Shown in pieces: positions 10,319 to 51,592 of a stretch of 64,000 nt of DNA. Origin of the DNA: a virus; IMG/VR virus record IMGVR_UViG_3300008267_000004, positions 96,001 to 160,000 of that record; one strand, 5' to 3'. The translations under genes were made by a program, and so were the position numbers. How positions within the stretch are numbered: the first letter of the stretch is position 1; every line of letters starts with the position of its first letter. The notes below the pieces were generated by a model. It worked only from the letters and a program-made list of their open reading frames with translations. It was not told the origin of the DNA and did not search any database.

Positions 10319-10552
10319 AAGTGGAAACCACACTAGAATATAATAATGTGTAGCTTATCGGGTTTTGCCATCTCTTCGCGGGCAAGTCACTAGATGCACT
10401 TCAATAACTTTCTAGGCTCTCCATGGGAACATGGAAGGGATAAATGTATGTAAAAATAAAAAGTCCCAAAACCTAGACTGGTGTTCATCAGCATCGTAAA
10501 ACACCATTTACTGTAAAATATGTCCTATCCACTTAGTTCTGAATTAAGTACA
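10319..10552 (-). ncRNA. putative structured ncRNA C (shared GCGAAGA motif)
   Basis: No ORF; AAGTGGA/TCCACTT closing helix, several hairpins, and a copy of the 40-nt motif at 10354-10393. Confidence 0.55.
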
Positions 10553-10904: not shown

Positions 10905-11178
10905 CACAAAGCAAGTAGTTAACAGGGACACTTCGACTATGGTCCCCAATGGGATCGAAGAAATGTCCTTTTCGATGGGTAACTATCTTCGCTGTTACCA
11001 CACTAGAGTTATTTTTTAGCTTTTAGGCCCATTCCAGATTCTAAGTCTAGGGGAACCAAGGGGGCTTAATCACCAACCCACCTATTATCCCACGCCAGGG
11101 ATTCATCTAGCTAACTACAAAAAGTAACCCATCAGTTTGAGGATACTAAGTTTCAGCATAGCCTTGACAGGTTTTGTT
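10905..11178 (-). ncRNA. putative structured ncRNA A (shared GCGAAGA motif)
   Basis: Non-coding ~270 nt between tRNAs; GATGGGTTACT/AGTTACCCATC long-range pairing; motif copy at 10967-11006. Confidence 0.6.
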
Positions 11179-11180
11179 AT

Positions 11181-11258
11181 TGGCGAGGAGTACGGGACTT
11201 GAACCCGTGATCTCTGGCGTGACAGGCCAGTGCTTTAAACCAACTAAGCTAACTCCCC
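11181..11258 (-). tRNA. tRNA-Asp(GTC)
   Basis: CTGGC-CTGTCAC-GCCAG, CCA. Confidence 0.93.
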
Positions 11259-11269
11259 ATTAAAAGATT

Positions 11270-11354
11270 TGGTAGGGTCAGTCGGATTCGAACCGACACT
11301 CCTTGCGGAACCAGATTTTGAGTCTAGCGTGGCTACCTGTTACACCATGACCCC
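11270..11354 (-). tRNA. tRNA-Leu(CAA)
   Basis: CTAGA-CTCAAAA-TCTGG, long variable arm, CCA. Confidence 0.92.
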
Positions 11355-11362
11355 ACAAAAAG

Positions 11363-11706
11363 AACAGCATAAGGTGTGTTACTACACCAAAAGGAACCCA
11401 TACTTGCTACTTTGCATACCTCACGTTATCATCCGCTTGGCACTGTTCTGCTTGTATGCCGGGCATTCTCCTATTCCCCAACCCAGCAGGACTGATTTAT
11501 TTACAATTAAGTTAGTCGTGGTTTACCTACTTAACCCGGCTGATTACGGTTTTGAACCATCTATAGTTTATCGGGGTTTCCATAGACAATTTTCAGTACG
11601 CTTTCGCTCTGTCCACGCTGGAAAACAGCTTAACTAACACCTGCCTAGGATTTCGTCCTACTCATTATAAGATGGCTACTCTTAAGCCAACTTCCCGTAT
11701 GCTGTT
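11363..11706 (-). ncRNA. large structured ncRNA containing a 23S rRNA H43/H44 (uL11-binding) domain mimic
   Basis: 9-bp terminal helix AACAGCATA/TATGCTGTT; 5' part GGGAAGTTGGCTTAAGAGTAGCCATCTTATAATGAGT and 3' part GTGTAGTAACACACC align to 23S nt ~1054-1105 with compensatory changes. Confidence 0.8.
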
Positions 11707-11716
11707 TACAACTATT

Positions 11717-11791
11717 TGGTTCCGGTAGATGGATTCGAACCACCGTTCACAGATTCAAAGTCTGCTGTCCTGCCAGTTAGACGATACCGGA
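11717..11791 (-). tRNA. tRNA-Gln(TTG)
   Basis: GCAGA-CTTTGAA-TCTGT, CCA. Confidence 0.92.
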
Positions 11792-11796
11792 TCAAA

Positions 11797-11881
11797 TGGT
11801 GGGCAAGGTCGGAATCGAACCGACACTCCTTTCGGAACTGGCTTCTAAGACCAGCGCGGCTACCAGTTACGCCACCTGCCC
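11797..11881 (-). tRNA. tRNA-Leu(TAG)
   Basis: CTGGT-CTTAGAA-GCCAG, long variable arm, CCA. Confidence 0.92.
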
Positions 11882-11890
11882 ATACTACTA

Positions 11891-12289
11891 TTAGAAATCT
11901 ACAATCTTCTTGAATTCAGTACCCGGTTCCATAACCAAGGGTTCCTCGCGTACCTCTACCCAACCGCTGTAGTAGCCGTTTGATGAGTTACGGAATTCAA
12001 TCGTACAGTGACCCTTATCGGTCTTAACCTTGATCATGTTAACCTGGATAAGGTTATAGTTGTCCTCCCATGAATCCCCGCCAACATTCTCGTATTCAAG
12101 GAACTTGGCATTGTCAAACACCAGAGCGTTATCACAATGTTCAAACCATGAATTAGAACAACAATCACCGTAGGCGTTAAGGCTATACCACACACCATCA
12201 ACCTTCCACATCATAACGTCGCGGTTCTGGTTGATAAGCGCATCAGTAATCGTTTTGCCCACCATCGGCTCAAAATCATTATAACCCAT
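11891..12289 (-). CDS. conserved phage hypothetical protein within the tRNA cluster
   Basis: 132 aa with GDCCSNSWFE and SNGYYSGW motifs; RBS-like AGGTGT upstream. Confidence 0.8.
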   Translation of the reverse strand: MGYNDFEPMVGKTITDALINQNRDVMMWKVDGVWYSLNAYGDCCSNSWFEHCDNALVFDNAKFLEYENVGGDSWEDNYNLIQVNMIKVKTDKGHCTIEFRNSSNGYYSGWVEVREEPLVMEPGTEFKKIVDF

Positions 12290-12417: not shown

Positions 12418-12633
12418 TGAATCTGCAATTGAAAGATTGAATTTCAATGGGGTTTGCAAGCCCTATTCAACCCTTGTCGATGGCAAACGATCTTCGCTGT
12501 TTGCACACTAGCTGCTTTGTTTGTTAATTGCTCTGATGCCGCTTAACAGAGTTGGCAACTCCTAGTCGTCAGTTTGCATGGTGTAAGTAGCAAAACATCC
12601 ACTAAAGTTATTCATCTATCTTTTGCAGATTCA
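12418..12633 (-). ncRNA. putative structured ncRNA B (shared GCGAAGA motif)
   Basis: Perfect 11-bp terminal helix TGAATCTGCAA/TTGCAGATTCA; motif copy at 12472-12511. Confidence 0.65.
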
Positions 12634-36970: not shown

Positions 36971-38548
36971 TTATACTTCAATAATAGCATGAGAAGTTGT
37001 TAATAAAGTTGAGGCAGCAGATACAGCATTTTGTAATGCACATCTTGTAACTTTTGTTGGATCTACAATACCTTCTTCAATTAAATCAACATAAGACCTA
37101 CTAACAAAATCATAACCAACCAAAGGGAGATCGGAAATATATAATACCTGATGAACTATAACGTCTGGGCTTTCATCGCAGTTCTTAGAAAGTGTTTTTA
37201 TTGGCTCGTAACAGGCTTTTTTAATTATTTCTACACCAAATTTTTGATCTTCATTATCCAGTTCTACTTCTTTTTCTAGTTCAAATGAACATCTCAATAG
37301 TGCCAATCCACCTCCAGGTAAAATACCCTCTTGTTGTGCGCTGCGTACAGCTTCTAAAGCATCTTCTATGCGATGCTTTCTTTCAGTCATATCTACTTCC
37401 GTAGAACCACCAACTCTTATAATTGCAATACCCGCAACTAAACGCGTAATTCTATCTTGAATAGATTCACACTCTTTTACATCACTACTTTGTTCAATTT
37501 CTGCTTTAAGAGAGTCTATCTTTTTTTGTACTTCCTCATAGTTTCCGCCGCCGCCGACTACCGTTGTCCAGTTTTTCAAAGATTCAATAGTCTTACAGCT
37601 TCCCATATGACTTCTTTTTACTTCTTTTAATGACATACCACTTTCTCTAGAAATAAATGTCGCACCTGTTGCCAACGCTAAATCTTTTAGCAGGTTTCTT
37701 CTTTCTTCACCGTATTTAGGCGCTTTGATGGCAGCGACTTTCATGCTGCCTCTTTTAAGGTTTAGAACCATAGCAGCTAAAGATTGTCCCTCTACATTTT
37801 CTGCAAAAATAATAAAAGGTTTATTCTCTCTTGCAGCAATTTCCAGTGCTGGCATTATATCGTCAAGGTTGTCAATTGAGTAATCAGTTACTAATAGTAT
37901 AGCATTTTCATATCTCATTGCCCCTCGACGTGGATCAGTTACAAACTCTGCTGATACAAAGCCGGATGGAATTTGAAACCCCTCAACAACATCTAAAGTT
38001 GTATCTACAGATTTGCCTTCCTCAATTGAAATAGCGCCATCTTTTCCTACTTTATCAACAGCCATAGCAATAAGTTTACCAATCTGTTTATCACCATTGG
38101 CAGATATTGTTGCGATATGTTCTATGTCTTCTATACTAGATACTTCTTTTGACATGCGATGCAATCTAGATACAATCGCAGTTACTGCTTTATCCATCCC
38201 ACGTTTAAGTTCTACTGGGCTTGCTCCGGCTGTAATGTATTTTTGAGCGTTTTGCATAACTGCTCTAGCTAGGACAGTAGCAGTTGTAGTTCCATCTCCA
38301 GCTTCTATAGCAGTAACCTCAGAAGCTTGTTTTAGCACTTGCGCTCCAACATTCTCAAAAGGATTTTCATATTCAATATTTTTAGCTACGGTAACTCCAT
38401 CTTTTGTAATTATAGGGTTTCTACCCTTAAGATGTATTACTACGTTTCTTCCTTTAGGGCCGAGAGTTGAACTGACAGCATCTGCCAGTTTGTTGACTCC
38501 ATCTAATATTGCTTTATTTAAAGAAGTTCCATTATCATATACTTTCAA
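36971..38548 (-). CDS. groEL: chaperonin GroEL
   Basis: TLGPKGRNV, TKDGVTVA, AGDGTTTA, RIEDAL, GGG, IVDP.KVTR.ALQNA.S.A; 525 aa. Confidence 0.97.
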   Translation of the reverse strand: MKVYDNGTSLNKAILDGVNKLADAVSSTLGPKGRNVVIHLKGRNPIITKDGVTVAKNIEYENPFENVGAQVLKQASEVTAIEAGDGTTTATVLARAVMQNAQKYITAGASPVELKRGMDKAVTAIVSRLHRMSKEVSSIEDIEHIATISANGDKQIGKLIAMAVDKVGKDGAISIEEGKSVDTTLDVVEGFQIPSGFVSAEFVTDPRRGAMRYENAILLVTDYSIDNLDDIMPALEIAARENKPFIIFAENVEGQSLAAMVLNLKRGSMKVAAIKAPKYGEERRNLLKDLALATGATFISRESGMSLKEVKRSHMGSCKTIESLKNWTTVVGGGGNYEEVQKKIDSLKAEIEQSSDVKECESIQDRITRLVAGIAIIRVGGSTEVDMTERKHRIEDALEAVRSAQQEGILPGGGLALLRCSFELEKEVELDNEDQKFGVEIIKKACYEPIKTLSKNCDESPDVIVHQVLYISDLPLVGYDFVSRSYVDLIEEGIVDPTKVTRCALQNAVSAASTLLTTSHAIIEV

Positions 38549-48154: not shown

Positions 48155-51100
48155 TTATCCTAATAGTTTAAAATTATGCTTAATGCTTCTAGTGCTAAAT
48201 CCCCAATCATCATGTTGAAGTTTTCCGAGGTATGGTCTATTTAACCAGACCTTATCTTTTTTAGGATCAACACCCCAGCATTTAATACTGGTCAGCTGAT
48301 TTGTATTATCCGTAACTTCAAGTATCCAATAGATTTTACCGTTTTTGGTTTTCTTTTCGGTATATTTACGTGGAATAAACCATACAACCTGGTTTAAGTC
48401 TTCATTTTCCTCAAACATGCTGATGGGTGGAATATACTTCTCCTCCAGTCGTTTTAAAGTGGGTGCATCCATAACAAGACTTATCGGATAAATACCGGAT
48501 AATGATACCAAGTTTTCAATTTTTTCTTCAACAGAAAAATCTCCTTCTGGTTTATATTTTTGGATATTTTCATCCAATTTTTTCTTAGTTTTTGGTCTGT
48601 CCACTACAACTGCTGACCAGAAATGTTTTAATCCACTAAAACGATTATCCACTAATGAATTCATTGCTTCGGTTCTAACTAGAGCATCAAGAGCTTTTTT
48701 ATTTACCTTACTATAGATAATTTCATCGTGAAATAATATTTCTTCAACTGTCTTAAATGGACGATATTTCATAATCTGATCAATGGCTACTTCACCGAGA
48801 CCTTTAACCGAAGTCAAGGGCTGGATAAGAGTTTTGCCATCATCGCCAACTTCCCATTTAACTCCAGACGAGTTAATATCTAATCGACGAATATTATATC
48901 CATAGCCTTTAGCTGTAGCAATAGCCTGCTCTTTTCTATCTTCCGGTTCTTTATCTAGGAATGCAGCGAGCCATTCCGCTGGGTGATAATGAAAAAGATA
49001 GGCACACTGGTAAGATAGAATGGAATAACAAACAGCGTGAGACAAATTGAACCCGTAACCAGAGAAAAATTCCATAGTTTTCCATAGATTTTCTGCATCG
49101 ACTTTTCTAATGTTTTTTTCCATGCAGCCGTCCACAAATTTTCCATATAGTTTCTCCTTTACTTGGGCTTCCTTACCAGTACCTTTTTTAGTTAATACCT
49201 TACGAAGTTCATTACCTTCATCAAGCGAAATATCTTTTCCAAGTTTATGAGCAAGCAGGCTCAATTGTTCTTGGAACACGATAAATCCATATGTCTCTTC
49301 TGTTACTTCTTTTACTACATCATGCATATAGAAAATATCGCTTGGATTATTTTTTGCTTCGATGTATTTTGTATGTACGTTTGCAGAAAGTGGACCGGGA
49401 CGATAGATAGAAGTAATGGCGGCAATATCTACAATGCTTTTTGGTTTTGCCTGCATACAAAACTTTTGAGCACCCATGTTAGTAAACTGAAATGTACCAC
49501 AGAAGTTTCCCTCTCCAAATACATAATCATAGACTTTTTGATCATTTAGATCAATCTTGTCTGGATGTAGATTATCACGATAATACTTCTTCACATCTTC
49601 AAACGTTGGATTTTTAATCCCATGTTTACGCTTTAAGATGTGCTCAATACAAGTTTCGATCATCCTTAGCGATGCTAGACCAAGAATATCAAATTTAATG
49701 AATCCAAGAGGTTCCAAATGACGTACAGTTTGGCCCTCAGTCCAAGGAGTTTGTGTTACTCCACCACTATTAATCAACGGCATTTTTTCGTTGATATTTT
49801 CTGCAAATAGTACACCACCAGCATGACGGGAAATACTGCGAATCTGACCCTGTAGGTTCTCTACATGCGTAGCTACATCTGGATATCTCTCCAAATATCC
49901 ACGGAGCGACGGAGAGTGCTCTTTCAGTTCTTCCCAAGTCGGAATATAAACACCAGCGGTAATTCCGTGAATACGTTTACATACAGGAATTGCCTCTGCT
50001 TGCATCTTGCTGGTTACTTCATTTACCTCTTGAAATGGAATATCGTAAAGCTTAGAGATATCCTTAATCAGTGAACGAATTTGTAGGGTGTTGTAGTTGG
50101 AGATTGGAACTACAGTATTTTCACCATACTTTGCAATCATCAATTCTTTGATTGCCATTGGATCACTTACGTCGAAGTCAATATCAGGATAATCCTTTGC
50201 GTTCTTACGAATAAAACGTGAGAACTGAAGTTTATACTTGATTGGATCGACTTCTGTAATATCAAGAAGGTACGATACTAGAGAGCCAGCACCAGATCCA
50301 CGACCACCACCACAAAGTTGTACATCTTTAGCGTCATTAGCAATATTTTTCATTGTTAGGAAGTAACGAGAAAAACCACGATCCTTGATCGTGTGAAGTT
50401 CTTCCTTTAGACGATCAACATATACATTATCTTTGTGTAGTCCAGCTGCTTTTAGCTTTTCAATTGCAATTTTAGCTAGAGCAGAGTCGGCACTTTCGCC
50501 TTCTGGAATTACGAATGATGGCAATTTTACTTCTGTATCTGGTACATAATTCTCGATACGATTTTTTACAATATCGCTAGTTCTCTCGATACTTTCAGCG
50601 ATAAGATCATCATCGTATTTAAATCCTAGTTTCTTAGAAGTCTCTTTATAAAATTGAAATAGTTGATCACCGTTTTTTGGATATAGTTGATAAGCCATTT
50701 CTTCTAGAGAAACAGGGAGGTTGCCCATAGATAGCTCTTCTTTGTTTTTTCCAAGCCATCCAAGCATTTTGTAAATTTCACGATCCTTCCAAAGGTCTGG
50801 TGAAGGATAGTGGGCATCACAAGTTGTTACAAGCTTAAACCCATATTGTTGGGAAAGCTTGATAATATATTGATTTAGGATATGCTGTTCTGGTGCCATA
50901 GCCCATTGAAGTTCGCCATAAAAACGATCTCCAAAGATGTTCATCATCTGTTGAACAGTTTTTTCCATAGCACTATAAACAGCGGTCTCACCAGCATCTC
51001 GGTTACGCCAATAATCATTAGCAAGAACCCCACCCAAACAGGCAGAGGAAGCGATGATTCCTTCGCCATGTTGACGAAGCATATCGTAGTCAATACGGGG

Positions 51101-51592
51101 GAAACGGTAAAAGTTGTCACCACTATAACTGGTAGAAACCAGCTTAAAAAGATTGTTAAGACCTGTTTGGTTTTGGGCAACAAGAACAAGGTGGCTTCTT
51201 TGATTGAGGGCGCTTTTAATTCCTTTTTTTGTTTCAGATTCATCTTCGACAACCAAACCAATTTCATCATCAACCTGTTTTGCAAGTTTTGCATCATCTT
51301 CATATCTTTCCTTTTCTTTTTTCCAGTCTGGAATTGAAGGATGGACATAGGCTTCAATTCCATACATAACCTTAAAATCAGTTTTACCTTCGTCCTTCAT
51401 TTTCTTTGACTTCATAAAGGCATAAGAAAAAGAGTTCATATTACCATGATTAGTAAATGCAATACCATCCAAACCATTACCGTAAGCATAATCAATATGC
51501 TCGTCGGGAAAGCCTAGACCATCGAAAATACTAAATGTATCGTGATTGTGTAGATTTGCGAACTTTAGGTTTGAATTTTTACGATCAGACAT
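48155..51592 (-). CDS. dnaE: DNA polymerase III alpha subunit (family C)
   Basis: PHP domain (LHNHD...), GRGSGAGSLV, PDIDFD, KFDILGL, FNLSH, C-terminal OB fold; 1145 aa. Confidence 0.96.
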   Translation of the reverse strand: MSDRKNSNLKFANLHNHDTFSIFDGLGFPDEHIDYAYGNGLDGIAFTNHGNMNSFSYAFMKSKKMKDEGKTDFKVMYGIEAYVHPSIPDWKKEKERYEDDAKLAKQVDDEIGLVVEDESETKKGIKSALNQRSHLVLVAQNQTGLNNLFKLVSTSYSGDNFYRFPRIDYDMLRQHGEGIIASSACLGGVLANDYWRNRDAGETAVYSAMEKTVQQMMNIFGDRFYGELQWAMAPEQHILNQYIIKLSQQYGFKLVTTCDAHYPSPDLWKDREIYKMLGWLGKNKEELSMGNLPVSLEEMAYQLYPKNGDQLFQFYKETSKKLGFKYDDDLIAESIERTSDIVKNRIENYVPDTEVKLPSFVIPEGESADSALAKIAIEKLKAAGLHKDNVYVDRLKEELHTIKDRGFSRYFLTMKNIANDAKDVQLCGGGRGSGAGSLVSYLLDITEVDPIKYKLQFSRFIRKNAKDYPDIDFDVSDPMAIKELMIAKYGENTVVPISNYNTLQIRSLIKDISKLYDIPFQEVNEVTSKMQAEAIPVCKRIHGITAGVYIPTWEELKEHSPSLRGYLERYPDVATHVENLQGQIRSISRHAGGVLFAENINEKMPLINSGGVTQTPWTEGQTVRHLEPLGFIKFDILGLASLRMIETCIEHILKRKHGIKNPTFEDVKKYYRDNLHPDKIDLNDQKVYDYVFGEGNFCGTFQFTNMGAQKFCMQAKPKSIVDIAAITSIYRPGPLSANVHTKYIEAKNNPSDIFYMHDVVKEVTEETYGFIVFQEQLSLLAHKLGKDISLDEGNELRKVLTKKGTGKEAQVKEKLYGKFVDGCMEKNIRKVDAENLWKTMEFFSGYGFNLSHAVCYSILSYQCAYLFHYHPAEWLAAFLDKEPEDRKEQAIATAKGYGYNIRRLDINSSGVKWEVGDDGKTLIQPLTSVKGLGEVAIDQIMKYRPFKTVEEILFHDEIIYSKVNKKALDALVRTEAMNSLVDNRFSGLKHFWSAVVVDRPKTKKKLDENIQKYKPEGDFSVEEKIENLVSLSGIYPISLVMDAPTLKRLEEKYIPPISMFEENEDLNQVVWFIPRKYTEKKTKNGKIYWILEVTDNTNQLTSIKCWGVDPKKDKVWLNRPYLGKLQHDDWGFSTRSIKHNFKLLG

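What the first reader, a model, noticed from the sequence alone, without database searches (positions are those of the whole stretch)
11363..11706. Phage ncRNA that rebuilds the 23S rRNA GTPase-associated centre (uL11-binding domain) around a large insertion
Seen: a 344-nt element closed by AACAGCATA/TATGCTGTT. Its 5' part (11660-11696) aligns to E. coli 23S ~1054-1090 and its 3' part (11373-11387) to ~1091-1105, separated by about 270 nt of further helices (GCCGGG/CCCGGC, GCATAC/GTATGC, GAAA tetraloops). Differences from E. coli are compensatory: 1054-1105 A-U to G-C, 1058-1080 U-A to A-U, 1082-1086 U-A to A-U, 1092-1099 C-G to U-A together with C1072U. The last change preserves the known 1072:1092-1099 base triple. 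A1067 and A1095 are retained. Established: this 58-nt fold binds uL11 and uL10, contacts EF-G, EF-Tu and RelA, and binds thiostrepton. Inference: a selected tertiary-structure mimic that may titrate uL11/uL10 or translational GTPases/RelA (stringent response), or decoy rRNA-targeting toxins. It may overlap with described large phage RNAs; I cannot exclude that.
Basis: partly seen in the sequence, partly recalled or inferred. Interest (0 to 1): 0.92.

Follow-up and report, generated by a model that had tools for sequence, protein, structure and literature searches.

The report
Phage RNA copying ribosome's uL11-binding centre
A 187-kb uncultured phage carries, inside its tRNA gene cluster, a 344-base non-coding RNA whose two ends fold into a self-closed copy of the piece of 23S ribosomal RNA that binds protein uL11 and meets the translation GTPases; it belongs to a large phage RNA family that I could not find described, and what it does is untested.

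Summary
Window 11363-11706 (minus strand) lies between tRNA-Gln and tRNA-Leu. Its 5' part matches 23S positions 1054-1090 and its 3' part 1091-1105, closed by a 12-bp non-rRNA helix around a 268-nt insertion.

It is not a one-off. Two pattern scans of viral contigs gave about 150 distinct elements with the same split design. The family also occurs in cultured phages (Pseudomonas pf16, Cronobacter GAP32, Aeromonas 4_4572), unannotated there.

Covariation is strong in every helix. The 1072:(1092-1099) base triple switches as a unit: C/C-G 109, U/U-A 22, U/U-G 5, one C/C-A exception. A covariance model built without the window hits both halves here (E 1e-11 and 2e-6) and nowhere else in the genome.

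All 117 tRNA genes within 300 nt of an element lie on its strand. No neighbouring protein is conserved, and five complete carrier phages encode no uL11 or bL12.

Rfam 15 has no matching family, and nine literature searches found no description.

This scan has noted the same family on other DNA: 136 findings in at least 105 genomes.

The function is inferred only. Most likely it is an off-ribosome, uL11-binding imitation of the stalk base that acts as a sponge or decoy.

The parts
11698..11706 (-). 5' strand of the closing helix (AACAGCAUA). It takes the place of the lower part of H42 and is not rRNA sequence.
   Evidence: Pairs with 11363-11371. The equivalent positions 1049-1055/1104-1110 covary with all four Watson-Crick types across 137 family members and in A1 (helix 1: all 10 of 10 pairs change on both sides).
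11694..11697 (-). Top of H42: C1053, G1054, G1055, G1056.
   Evidence: G1054-C1105 and G1055-C1104 are paired. In the family, G1056 opposite A1103 is kept as G.A or A.A in 128 of 137 members.
11669..11693 (-). H43 hairpin (1057-1081) with the A1067 loop. U1072 is at 11678 and A1067 at 11683.
   Evidence: Gap-free match to 23S. The 5' half scores 40.1 bits, E 1e-11, with model R1. Family covariation: 1057:1081 is AU 111 / CG 12, and 1058:1080 is UA 57 / GC 38 / AU 35 / CG 4.
11660..11668 (-). The 1082-1086 turn (A-U pair at 11668/11664) followed by G1087 A1088 G1089 U1090.
   Evidence: 1082:1086 is UA 67 / CG 39 / AU 17 in the family. A1085 and A1088 are invariant.
11392..11659 (-). Insertion of 268 nt between U1090 and G1091. 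Its terminal helix is AGGA (11659-11656) with UCCU (11395-11392).
   Evidence: Insertion plus the 4-nt linker is 28-369 nt (median 156) in the family. The terminal helix covaries (helix 5: 4 of 4 pairs change on both sides, 89% paired). The inner helices of this copy are predictions only, and no family member shares its sequence.
11388..11391 (-). Conserved single-stranded linker UUUG, just before G1091.
   Evidence: The last five bases before G1091 read YUUUG or AUUUG in 125 of 137 members.
11373..11387 (-). H44 upper hairpin and 3' strand (1091-1105). U1092-A1099 is at 11386/11379 and A1095 at 11383.
   Evidence: The 3' half scores 24 bits, E 2e-6, with R1. G1093 and A1098 are invariant; U1094 is 136 of 137 and A1095 is 135 of 137. 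U1090-A1101 is present in all 137, although U1090 was fixed by the GAGT anchor used to parse the cores.
11363..11371 (-). 3' strand of the closing helix (UAUGCUGUU).
   Evidence: Complement of 11698-11706.
11717..11791 (-). Upstream tRNA-Gln(UUG). Its 3' end lies 10 nt before the element.
   Evidence: ARAGORN and Rfam tRNA at 61.9 bits.
11270..11354 (-). Downstream tRNA-Leu(CAA). Its 5' end lies 8 nt after the element.
   Evidence: ARAGORN and Rfam tRNA at 52.5 bits.

Best explanation
The element is one member of a large, apparently undescribed family of phage non-coding RNAs. They fold into a free-standing, self-closed copy of the GTPase-associated centre of 23S rRNA: the top of H42, H43 and H44, which form the uL11 and thiostrepton site.

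Shown here:
- The family exists.
- Its secondary structure and the diagnostic base triple covary.
- It sits in phage tRNA arrays on the tRNA strand.
- No Rfam 15 family matches it.

Inferred:
- It is transcribed with the tRNAs and freed by the RNase P and 3'-end processing of its neighbours.
- Off the ribosome it binds host uL11, as the isolated 58-nt rRNA fragment does in vitro (established knowledge).
- It presents the A1067/A1095 cleft as an imitation of the ribosomal stalk base.
- It thereby works as a sponge or decoy during infection. Either it draws uL11 away from ribosomes, which would blunt uL11-dependent RelA activation, or it soaks up ligands that would otherwise act on the ribosomal site.

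The insertion after U1090 is a variable add-on that projects from a three-way junction. It is not the conserved working part.
For: The family and its fold:
- Scans of viral contigs with a 5'-half and a 3'-half pattern gave 149 unique two-half elements, two of which are true rRNA or rRNA-like.
- The cores of 137 were parsed. Every helix covaries. In alignment A1, 88.4% of cells are paired against 66.5% in shuffles (0 of 500 shuffles reach it). The covariation score is 0.566, against 0.157 for shuffles and 0.10-0.18 for slid registers.
- Tertiary signature: positions 1072 and 1092 are C/C in 110 members, U/U in 27 and never mixed. The U/U-A state occurs on at least 11 backgrounds of the other covarying pairs.
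- Nucleotides known to build the fold are invariant: U1060, A1077, A1085, A1088, G1093 and A1098.

Membership of the window element: model R1 was built without it and hits both halves only here.

Context:
- A tRNA lies within 30 nt of 60 of 157 elements and within 300 nt of 85.
- All 117 such neighbours are on the same strand.
- No neighbouring protein is conserved; the largest cluster covers 10 of 157 loci.
- Five complete carrier phages have no uL11 or bL12 gene, so any protein partner would be a host protein.

The core is sufficient: insertion-less forms of about 60 nt exist.

The site is a real battleground: the Rhs toxin Tre23 ADP-ribosylates H44 at 1095-1098 (PMC8661411).
Against: - No binding, expression or phenotype data exist. 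uL11 binding is extrapolated from the rRNA fragment.
- Seven members carry a second hairpin inserted after A1077 in the 3' strand of H43, in or next to the region I recall as the uL11 C-terminal-domain contact. I could not check the geometry.
- A1067 is G in 16 of 137 members. Positions 1096 and 1097 are free to vary, so the factor- and drug-contacting loops are under looser constraint than in rRNA.
- Stripping uL11 from ribosomes would also slow the phage's own translation.
- A substrate decoy is a weak defence against a catalytic toxin unless it binds as an inhibitor.
Confidence: 0.5

Rival explanations
1. Protective decoy against attack on the ribosomal site. The RNA, with or without uL11, offers a surplus of GAC-like targets or a tight pseudo-substrate. 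The attackers would be host abortive-infection effectors, interbacterial toxins or thiopeptides that act on H43/H44. Ribosomes then keep translating phage mRNAs. uL11 depletion is not the point.
For: The element is co-located and co-oriented with tRNA arrays. By established knowledge, such arrays often serve as replacement parts against tRNA-targeting defences. The A1095 loop residues G1093, U1094, A1095 and A1098 are at least 98.5% conserved and A1067 is 87% conserved, more than I recall uL11 C-domain binding requiring. At least one natural toxin, Tre23, modifies H44 at 1095-1098.
Against: No phage-defence effector aimed at the GAC is known. The family spans phages of Proteobacteria, Firmicutes, Actinobacteria and Chloroflexi bins, which argues for a universal partner rather than one toxin family. 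Positions 1096 and 1097, inside the Tre23 target window, vary freely. Catalytic toxins are hard to titrate.
Confidence: 0.25
2. Handle or scaffold. The GAC fold is only a very stable, protein-coated and nuclease-resistant module. The variable insertion is the part that acts, for example as a base-pairing or protein-binding domain.
For: Nearly all members carry an insertion at exactly the same backbone position, with a conserved YUUUG linker. About a quarter share an insertion module: a 3-bp hairpin with a GNRA or UAAC loop and a covarying closing pair, followed by UAAGG.
Against: The insertion with its linker ranges from 28 to 369 nt, with no sequence common to all members. The window's insertion resembles none of the others. 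Insertion-less forms of about 60 nt exist. The strongest conservation is in the GAC core.
Confidence: 0.1
3. Direct ligand for a translation GTPase, RelA/SpoT homologue or the tRNA elbow. The mimic binds these factors themselves, not uL11, and diverts or chaperones them.
For: On the ribosome, the A1067 and A1095 loops contact EF-G and EF-Tu and the elbow of A/T-state tRNA (established knowledge). The element is made together with tRNAs.
Against: Off the ribosome these contacts are weak, because factor binding also needs the sarcin-ricin loop and bL12 (established knowledge). Loop positions 1067, 1096 and 1097 are relaxed relative to rRNA.
Confidence: 0.08
4. No function of its own. The element would be a captured scrap of host 23S rDNA, a pseudo-rRNA interrupted by a mobile intron, or a cis-regulatory leader like those of ribosomal-protein operons.
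For: One member, L164, keeps about 12 further nucleotides of gamma-proteobacterial H42 sequence on each side, as a recent capture would. Ribosomal-protein leaders do mimic rRNA sites (established knowledge).
Against: The flanks are not rRNA and covary as a new closing helix. About 150 distinct copies keep the fold under compensatory change. Rfam finds no LSU rRNA, group I or II intron or leader match. The insertion can be as short as 28 nt with its linker. The neighbours are tRNAs, with no conserved downstream ORF.
Confidence: 0.03

Closest known systems
GTPase-associated centre of bacterial 23S rRNA (top of H42, H43, H44; E. coli 1051-1108; the 58-nt uL11- and thiostrepton-binding fragment)
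   Same: The secondary structure is the same and the H43 hairpin is nearly identical. The tertiary-contact nucleotides are the same: U1060, A1077, A1085, A1088, G1071, and G1093 opposite A1098. The same C/C-G to U/U-A covariation of the 1072:(1092-1099) triple occurs, and A1067 and A1095 are retained.
   Different: It is a free-standing RNA of 100-450 nt closed by an arbitrary helix, not part of a 2.9-kb rRNA. A helix plus a YUUUG linker is inserted between 1090 and 1091. Position 1101 is A, pairing with U1090, where rRNA has U. Positions 1061, 1067, 1068, 1070, 1096 and 1097 are relaxed. It is encoded by phages among tRNA genes. The Rfam LSU model does not match it.
rRNA-mimicking leaders of ribosomal-protein operons (for example the L10 leader RF00557, and the L1, S8 and L20 sites)
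   Same: These are RNAs outside the ribosome that imitate an rRNA protein-binding site.
   Different: The leaders are cis-acting mRNA segments upstream of the regulated protein gene in cellular genomes, and they copy only a local motif. This RNA copies a whole tertiary domain. It has no associated ribosomal-protein gene, sits between tRNAs in phages, and matches no Rfam leader.
Large ornate phage-associated RNAs (GOLLD, ROOL) found next to tRNA genes
   Same: These are structured non-coding RNAs of unknown function, carried by phages and often adjacent to tRNAs.
   Different: There is no Rfam match to either. Neither is described as containing an rRNA domain copy; the cryo-EM preprint on them holds no occurrence of 'GTPase-associated'. 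This family is smaller, and its conserved core is the GAC fold.
Phage tRNA arrays and RNA decoys in phage-host conflict (replacement tRNAs, pseudo-ToxI)
   Same: The genomic setting is the same, and the likely logic is the same: phage-made copies of host translation or antitoxin RNAs (PMC3475682, listed).
   Different: The thing copied is a ribosomal RNA domain. No such phage-encoded copy turned up in any search.

Membership tests
Phage split-GAC mimic RNA family (defined here; no published name found) | H43 hairpin plus the 1082:1086 pair plus GAGU at the 5' side | tested here: met
   Window 11693-11660. R1 scores the 5' half at 40.1 bits, E 1e-11.
Phage split-GAC mimic RNA family (defined here; no published name found) | YUUUG linker plus the H44 hairpin G-Y-GUARNA-R-C-ACAC at the 3' side | tested here: met
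   Window 11391-11374 reads UUUG-GU-GUAGUA-AC-ACAC. R1 scores the 3' half at 24 bits, E 2e-6.
Phage split-GAC mimic RNA family (defined here; no published name found) | Non-rRNA closing helix that pairs the two ends directly outside 1054-1105 | tested here: met
   A 12-bp helix with one C.U mismatch, 11706-11695 with 11363-11374. The modal family length is 8-12 bp.
Phage split-GAC mimic RNA family (defined here; no published name found) | Insertion between U1090 and G1091 that begins and ends in a helix | tested here: met
   The insertion is 268 nt, with AGGA/UCCU as its terminal pairs. It lies within the family range.
Phage split-GAC mimic RNA family (defined here; no published name found) | Position 1072 matches the state of the 1092-1099 pair (C with C-G, or U with U-A) | tested here: met
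   The window has U1072 with U1092-A1099. In the family the counts are 109 C/C-G, 22 U/U-A, 5 U/U-G and 1 exception.
Phage split-GAC mimic RNA family (defined here; no published name found) | Location in a phage tRNA array on the tRNA strand | tested here: met
   It lies between tRNA-Gln and tRNA-Leu, 10 and 8 nt away, on the same strand. In the family, all 117 of 117 neighbouring tRNAs are co-oriented.
Bacterial LSU rRNA (RF02541) | Significant match to the LSU covariance model, with continuity into flanking rRNA domains | tested here: not met
   No LSU hit at E<=10 over 11250-11800. The positive control L093 scores 2213 bits. The flanks are tRNAs.
GOLLD, ROOL and other Rfam large phage RNAs | Match to the family covariance model | tested here: not met
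   Nothing but tRNA at gathering score in the window or in 13 other member loci. Nothing relevant at E<=10.
Ribosomal-protein operon leaders (for example L10_leader) | Lies upstream of, and regulates, a ribosomal-protein gene | tested here: not met
   No PF00298 or PF00542 gene in the whole phage or in four other complete carriers. The downstream gene is a tRNA. There is no Rfam leader hit.
Group I or II intron inside an rRNA-like exon | Intron catalytic core in the insertion | tested here: not met
   No intron model hit in the element. Family insertions go down to 28 nt with the linker.
uL11-binding RNAs (functional class) | Binds uL11 with the tertiary fold of the 58-nt fragment | not testable with these tools
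   Only the sequence determinants of the fold could be checked, and they are conserved. Binding itself needs an experiment.

The most novel reading that the evidence does not exclude
Phages of many bacterial phyla make a free-standing RNA replica of the ribosome's stalk base as a general tool for taking over or shielding translation. Bound to host uL11, it would act as a decoy that switches off uL11-dependent RelA signalling. Alternatively it would absorb a still unknown, widespread class of defence effectors aimed at H43/H44. This would be the first rRNA-domain mimic encoded by a mobile element, and a new layer of the phage-host conflict over the ribosome. The boldest variant that the data do not exclude is that the insertion docks the replica onto ribosomes as a surrogate GTPase centre.
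Probability: 0.4. Interest if true: 0.95.

Novelty: categorically new. Interest (0 to 1): 0.88.

Why it matters
The GTPase-associated centre is one of the best-studied RNA tertiary folds. It is a hub for EF-G, EF-Tu, RelA, thiopeptide antibiotics and at least one toxin.

Hundreds of phages, from jumbo enterobacterial phages to gut and groundwater viruses, keep a covarying stand-alone copy of it among their tRNA genes. This implies a widespread and unrecognised way for viruses to interfere with, or protect, the host translation machinery.

The family offers several things:
- a natural series of GAC variants, with tolerated insertion sites and tested tertiary covariation;
- unannotated genes in cultured, tractable phages (pf16, GAP32, 4_4572, RSP15) for direct genetics;
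- a possible explanation for part of the non-tRNA content of phage tRNA arrays.

If the partner is uL11 or RelA, it links phage infection to control of the stringent response. If the partner is a toxin, it points to undiscovered GAC-directed defence systems.

Tried and rejected
- Rfam 15 at gathering score on the window and on 22 other loci, and at E<=10 on the element, gave only tRNAs, one true LSU rRNA (L093) and a group I intron elsewhere.
- Thermodynamic support is absent: z = -0.86. The argument therefore rests on comparison.
- The genome-contig scan with a 15-mer was mostly chance hits. Only 10 of 120 loci had both halves.
- I looked for a conserved neighbouring protein and found none; there is a TerD-domain gene in one lineage and scattered HNH endonucleases.
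- I looked for phage-encoded uL11 or bL12 in five complete carriers and found none.
- I looked for relatives of the window's own insertion within the family and found only an 18-nt match to L171.
- I first believed the insertion to be obligatory. A directed scan then found three insertion-less copies, so that claim is dropped.
- Of nine full-text searches, the eight that looked for a description of such an RNA, and look-ups in Fremin 2023 and Weinberg 2017, found none. The ninth search looked for the Tre23 toxin paper. One preprint on genome-language-model mining of ncRNAs, listed, could not be opened; its listing shows no occurrence of 'GTPase-associated'.
- Mapping the two insertion sites onto a GAC crystal structure was not possible because no RNA coordinates are at hand.

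Full report
**What is there.** On the minus strand, window 11363-11706 lies between tRNA-Gln(UUG) at 11717-11791 and tRNA-Leu(CAA) at 11270-11354. These belong to a run of 24 co-oriented tRNA genes. The window is bases 96001-160000 of a 187,450-bp IMG/VR virus record. That phage encodes a Pol III alpha subunit, a DnaB-like helicase, a ribonucleotide reductase and a GroEL-like chaperonin.

- AACAGCAUA (11706-11698) pairs with UAUGCUGUU (11371-11363).
- 11696-11660 aligns without gaps to E. coli 23S 1054-1090, and 11387-11373 to 1091-1105.
- The differences from E. coli are compensatory: 1054-1105 G-C, 1058-1080 A-U, 1082-1086 A-U.
- U1092-A1099 comes together with U1072.
- A1067 (11683) and A1095 (11383) are kept.
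- Between U1090 and G1091 lie 268 nt plus a UUUG linker.

**It is a family.**
- A scan of viral contigs for the H43 hairpin, with three free positions, returned 108 loci. Two of them continue as rRNA does. Rfam confirms L093 as LSU rRNA; L080 gave no LSU hit.
- All the others diverge after GAGU. Further on they carry YUUUG-GCGUARNAGCACAC, followed by the complement of their own 5' flank.
- Together this gives 149 unique two-half elements. The cores of 137 could be parsed completely.
- Ten more lie in bacterial genomes or MAG bins: Clostridia, Acidimicrobiales, Neisseriaceae, Anaerolineales and Pseudobdellovibrionaceae. The other 110 hits of that 15-mer scan were chance matches.
- The family is present and unannotated in cultured phages. 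I confirmed both halves in Pseudomonas pf16 (between tRNA-Asn and tRNA-Pro), Cronobacter GAP32 and Aeromonas 4_4572.
- The 5' core alone also matches records of Ralstonia RSP15, Xanthomonas XacN1, Serratia BF, Acinetobacter ME3, Yersinia fHe-Yen9-04 and Paenibacillus Pd_22F. The weaker of these matches have E of 0.1-0.3.

**Structure is under selection.**
- Across the 137 cores, the closing helix (1049-1055 with 1104-1110) uses all four Watson-Crick pair types.
- 1057:1081 is AU 111 / CG 12.
- 1058:1080 is UA 57 / GC 38 / AU 35 / CG 4.
- 1082:1086 is UA 67 / CG 39 / AU 17.
- I aligned 35 short-insertion members without the window sequence (A1). The rRNA-derived structure plus the insertion's terminal helix gives 88.4% paired cells, against 66.5% in shuffles (0 of 500 reach it).
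- It has 238 doubly changed cells against 84 in shuffles. The covariation score is 0.566, against 0.157 for shuffles and 0.10-0.18 for slid registers.
- The nucleotides that I know to build the tertiary fold of the 58-nt fragment are invariant: U1060, A1077, A1085, A1088, G1093 and A1098. G1071 is 136 of 137.
- A1095 is 135 of 137 and A1067 is 119 of 137.
- Some of this invariance was imposed by my own search and parsing patterns. GAGT at 1087-1090 was used as a parsing anchor, and the 3'-half scan fixed several bases of H44. The other core positions were matched only approximately, up to six mismatches in the H43 21-mer and four in the 3' 17-mer. The pair statistics and the triple correlation were not constrained.

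**The base triple.** Positions 1072 and 1092 are C/C in 110 members and U/U in 27, never mixed. The third partner, 1099, is G with C/C (109, plus one A) and A (22) or G (5) with U/U. Fisher's exact test gives 3e-29, but the sequences are related, so this is not a true probability. More telling, the U/U-A state appears on at least 11 different backgrounds of the other covarying pairs, which it shares with C/C-G members. This is the same covariation known from rRNA phylogeny for the 1072:(1092-1099) triple (established knowledge, recalled). It is hard to explain unless the RNA adopts the GAC tertiary fold. The window element is one of the U/U-A members.

**Membership of the window element.** Covariance model R1, built from A1, finds the window element as two hits, because the 268-nt insertion exceeds what the model allows. 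They are 11538-11704 (40.1 bits, E 1e-11) and 11363-11486 (24 bits, E 2e-6). The next best hit in the window has E 0.15, and there are no other hits in the 187-kb genome.

**The insertion.**
- With its 4-nt linker it is 28-369 nt long, median 156.
- It always starts directly after U1090 with a helix whose partner strand ends directly before the YUUUG linker. That helix covaries: all 4 pairs change on both sides.
- About 41 members share a module at the 3' end of the insertion. It is a 3-bp hairpin with a GNRA or UAAC loop and a covarying closing pair, followed by UAAGG. The window copy lacks it.
- The window's insertion resembles no other member apart from an 18-nt stretch shared with L171. 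Its internal helices are therefore predictions only.
- Seven members carry a second hairpin inserted after A1077.
- A directed scan also found three insertion-less, self-closed copies of about 60 nt.
- The GAC core is therefore the unit that is conserved and sufficient. The insertion is an elaboration that projects from a three-way junction (inference).

**Context.**
- Of 157 elements, 60 have a tRNA within 30 nt and 85 within 300 nt.
- All 117 of those neighbours are on the element's strand.
- This fixes the transcribed strand and suggests release by tRNA processing (inference).
- No protein family recurs beside the element. The largest cluster covers 10 of 157 loci and is a TerD-domain protein in one lineage.
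- Five complete carrier genomes, including this one, encode no uL11 or bL12 homologue. The same searches found uL11 in all 14 control genomes and bL12 in 10.
- Any protein partner is therefore presumably a host protein.

**Is it known?**
- Rfam 15 (4,227 families) has nothing for it, at gathering score or at E<=10.
- Of nine full-text searches, eight looked for a phage-encoded mimic of the GTPase centre and found none. The ninth located the Tre23 paper.
- The large surveys of candidate structured RNAs that I opened do not mention 23S, L11 or GTPase.
- One recent preprint could not be opened.
- Subscription journals are not covered, so absence is not proven.
- Earlier notes of this same scan report the family on other DNA: 136 findings in at least 105 genomes. 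Their follow-ups likewise found no description. Those are AI notes and not independent evidence. One of them prompted the insertion-less search that I then ran myself.

**How it most likely works.**
- Established: the isolated 58-nt fold binds uL11 tightly and binds thiostrepton. On the ribosome, its 1067 and 1095 loops meet EF-G, EF-Tu with tRNA, and uL11-dependent RelA.
- Established from a paper read here: the Rhs toxin Tre23 ADP-ribosylates H44 at 1095-1098 and blocks EF-G GTPase. The site is therefore a real target in bacterial conflict.
- Inference: an abundant, tRNA-co-transcribed RNA with this fold will be loaded with free or exchanging host uL11 and will act off the ribosome as an imitation of the stalk base.
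- I put about 0.5 on a uL11-binding sponge or decoy in general. Within that, uL11 withdrawal that blunts the stringent response is the most concrete consequence.
- I put about 0.25 on a protective decoy against GAC-directed effectors or drugs.
- Less goes to a scaffold role for the insertion, to direct factor binding, or to no function.

**Points against the leading idea.**
- A hairpin insertion is tolerated at 1077/1078, in or next to the region I recall as the uL11 contact.
- Positions 1067, 1096 and 1097 are relaxed.
- uL11 depletion would cost the phage's own translation.
- uL10 binding is doubtful, because the H42 part has no conserved sequence.

**Verdict.** The structural interpretation is strongly supported and generalised to a large, apparently undescribed phage RNA family. 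The function is untested.

Noticed in passing
window 10955-11020, 12460-12525, 10342-10407 (minus strand): Other non-tRNA gaps of the same tRNA array share a motif: CUAGUG, then a stem, then AGCGAAGAU, then the stem complement, then CCAUCGAnAAGG. Copies A and B differ by compensatory changes in the stem (GGUAAC/GUUACC against GCAAAC/GUUUGC). Copy C keeps only CUAGUG and GCGAAGA. This is probably a second small structured RNA family in the array.
   Followed up: partly
window 11891-12289 (minus strand): A 132-aa ORF sits inside the tRNA array. It matches Pfam DUF7448 (E 5.7e-13). Its function is unknown.
   Followed up: partly
L118, L150, L164, L176, L204, L205, L208: Seven family members carry a second inserted hairpin in the 3' strand of H43, directly after A1077, in addition to the insertion after U1090. 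This second tolerated insertion site could show which face of the fold must stay free.
   Followed up: partly
L164 (IMGVR_UViG_3300020172_006270), element about 90 nt between its two halves: This member keeps about 12 extra nucleotides on each side that read like gamma-proteobacterial 23S H42 (GACAGCCAGGAU... and ...CACUGGCCGAGCC). It sits among tRNAs and has no Rfam LSU hit. It may be a recent capture from host rDNA and a hint to the family's origin.
   Followed up: partly
L335:1044-1071, L336:4891-4918, L337:322-349: These are insertion-less, self-closed GAC copies of about 60 nt, closed by AUGUGG/CCACAU. All three follow the same A/T-rich upstream sequence (UAUAAGAUGUCUUGAAAUAGUAUAAAAAUG in two; the third has UUA for UUG). 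They have C at 1067. They combine U1072 with C1092-G1099, which breaks the triple rule seen in the split forms.
   Followed up: partly
About 41 family members, last ~45 nt of the insertion (for example L007, L018, L109, L332): These share a module: CAC, then CC-N-(GNRA or UAAC)-N'-GG, then UAAGG. The N:N' pair covaries (G.U, U-A, A-U, C-G, G-C). It looks like a tetraloop hairpin placed to dock on the core. The window element lacks it.
   Followed up: partly
L080 (IMGVR_UViG_3300029275_000010, 2726 nt): The H43-H44 region reads like genuine contiguous LSU rRNA (…AAAGAAAGCGUAAUAGCUCAC…). Rfam nevertheless reported no LSU hit on this locus at gathering score.
   Followed up: no
L055:2334-2589: A group I intron (Rfam RF00028, 72 bits) lies about 2.7 kb upstream of that phage's GAC-mimic element, near tRNA genes.
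   Followed up: no
window 36971-38548 and 48155-51592 (minus strand): The phage encodes a GroEL-like chaperonin (Cpn60_TCP1, E 3e-68) and a bacterial-type DNA polymerase III alpha subunit (PHP, NTPase and finger domains).
   Followed up: no
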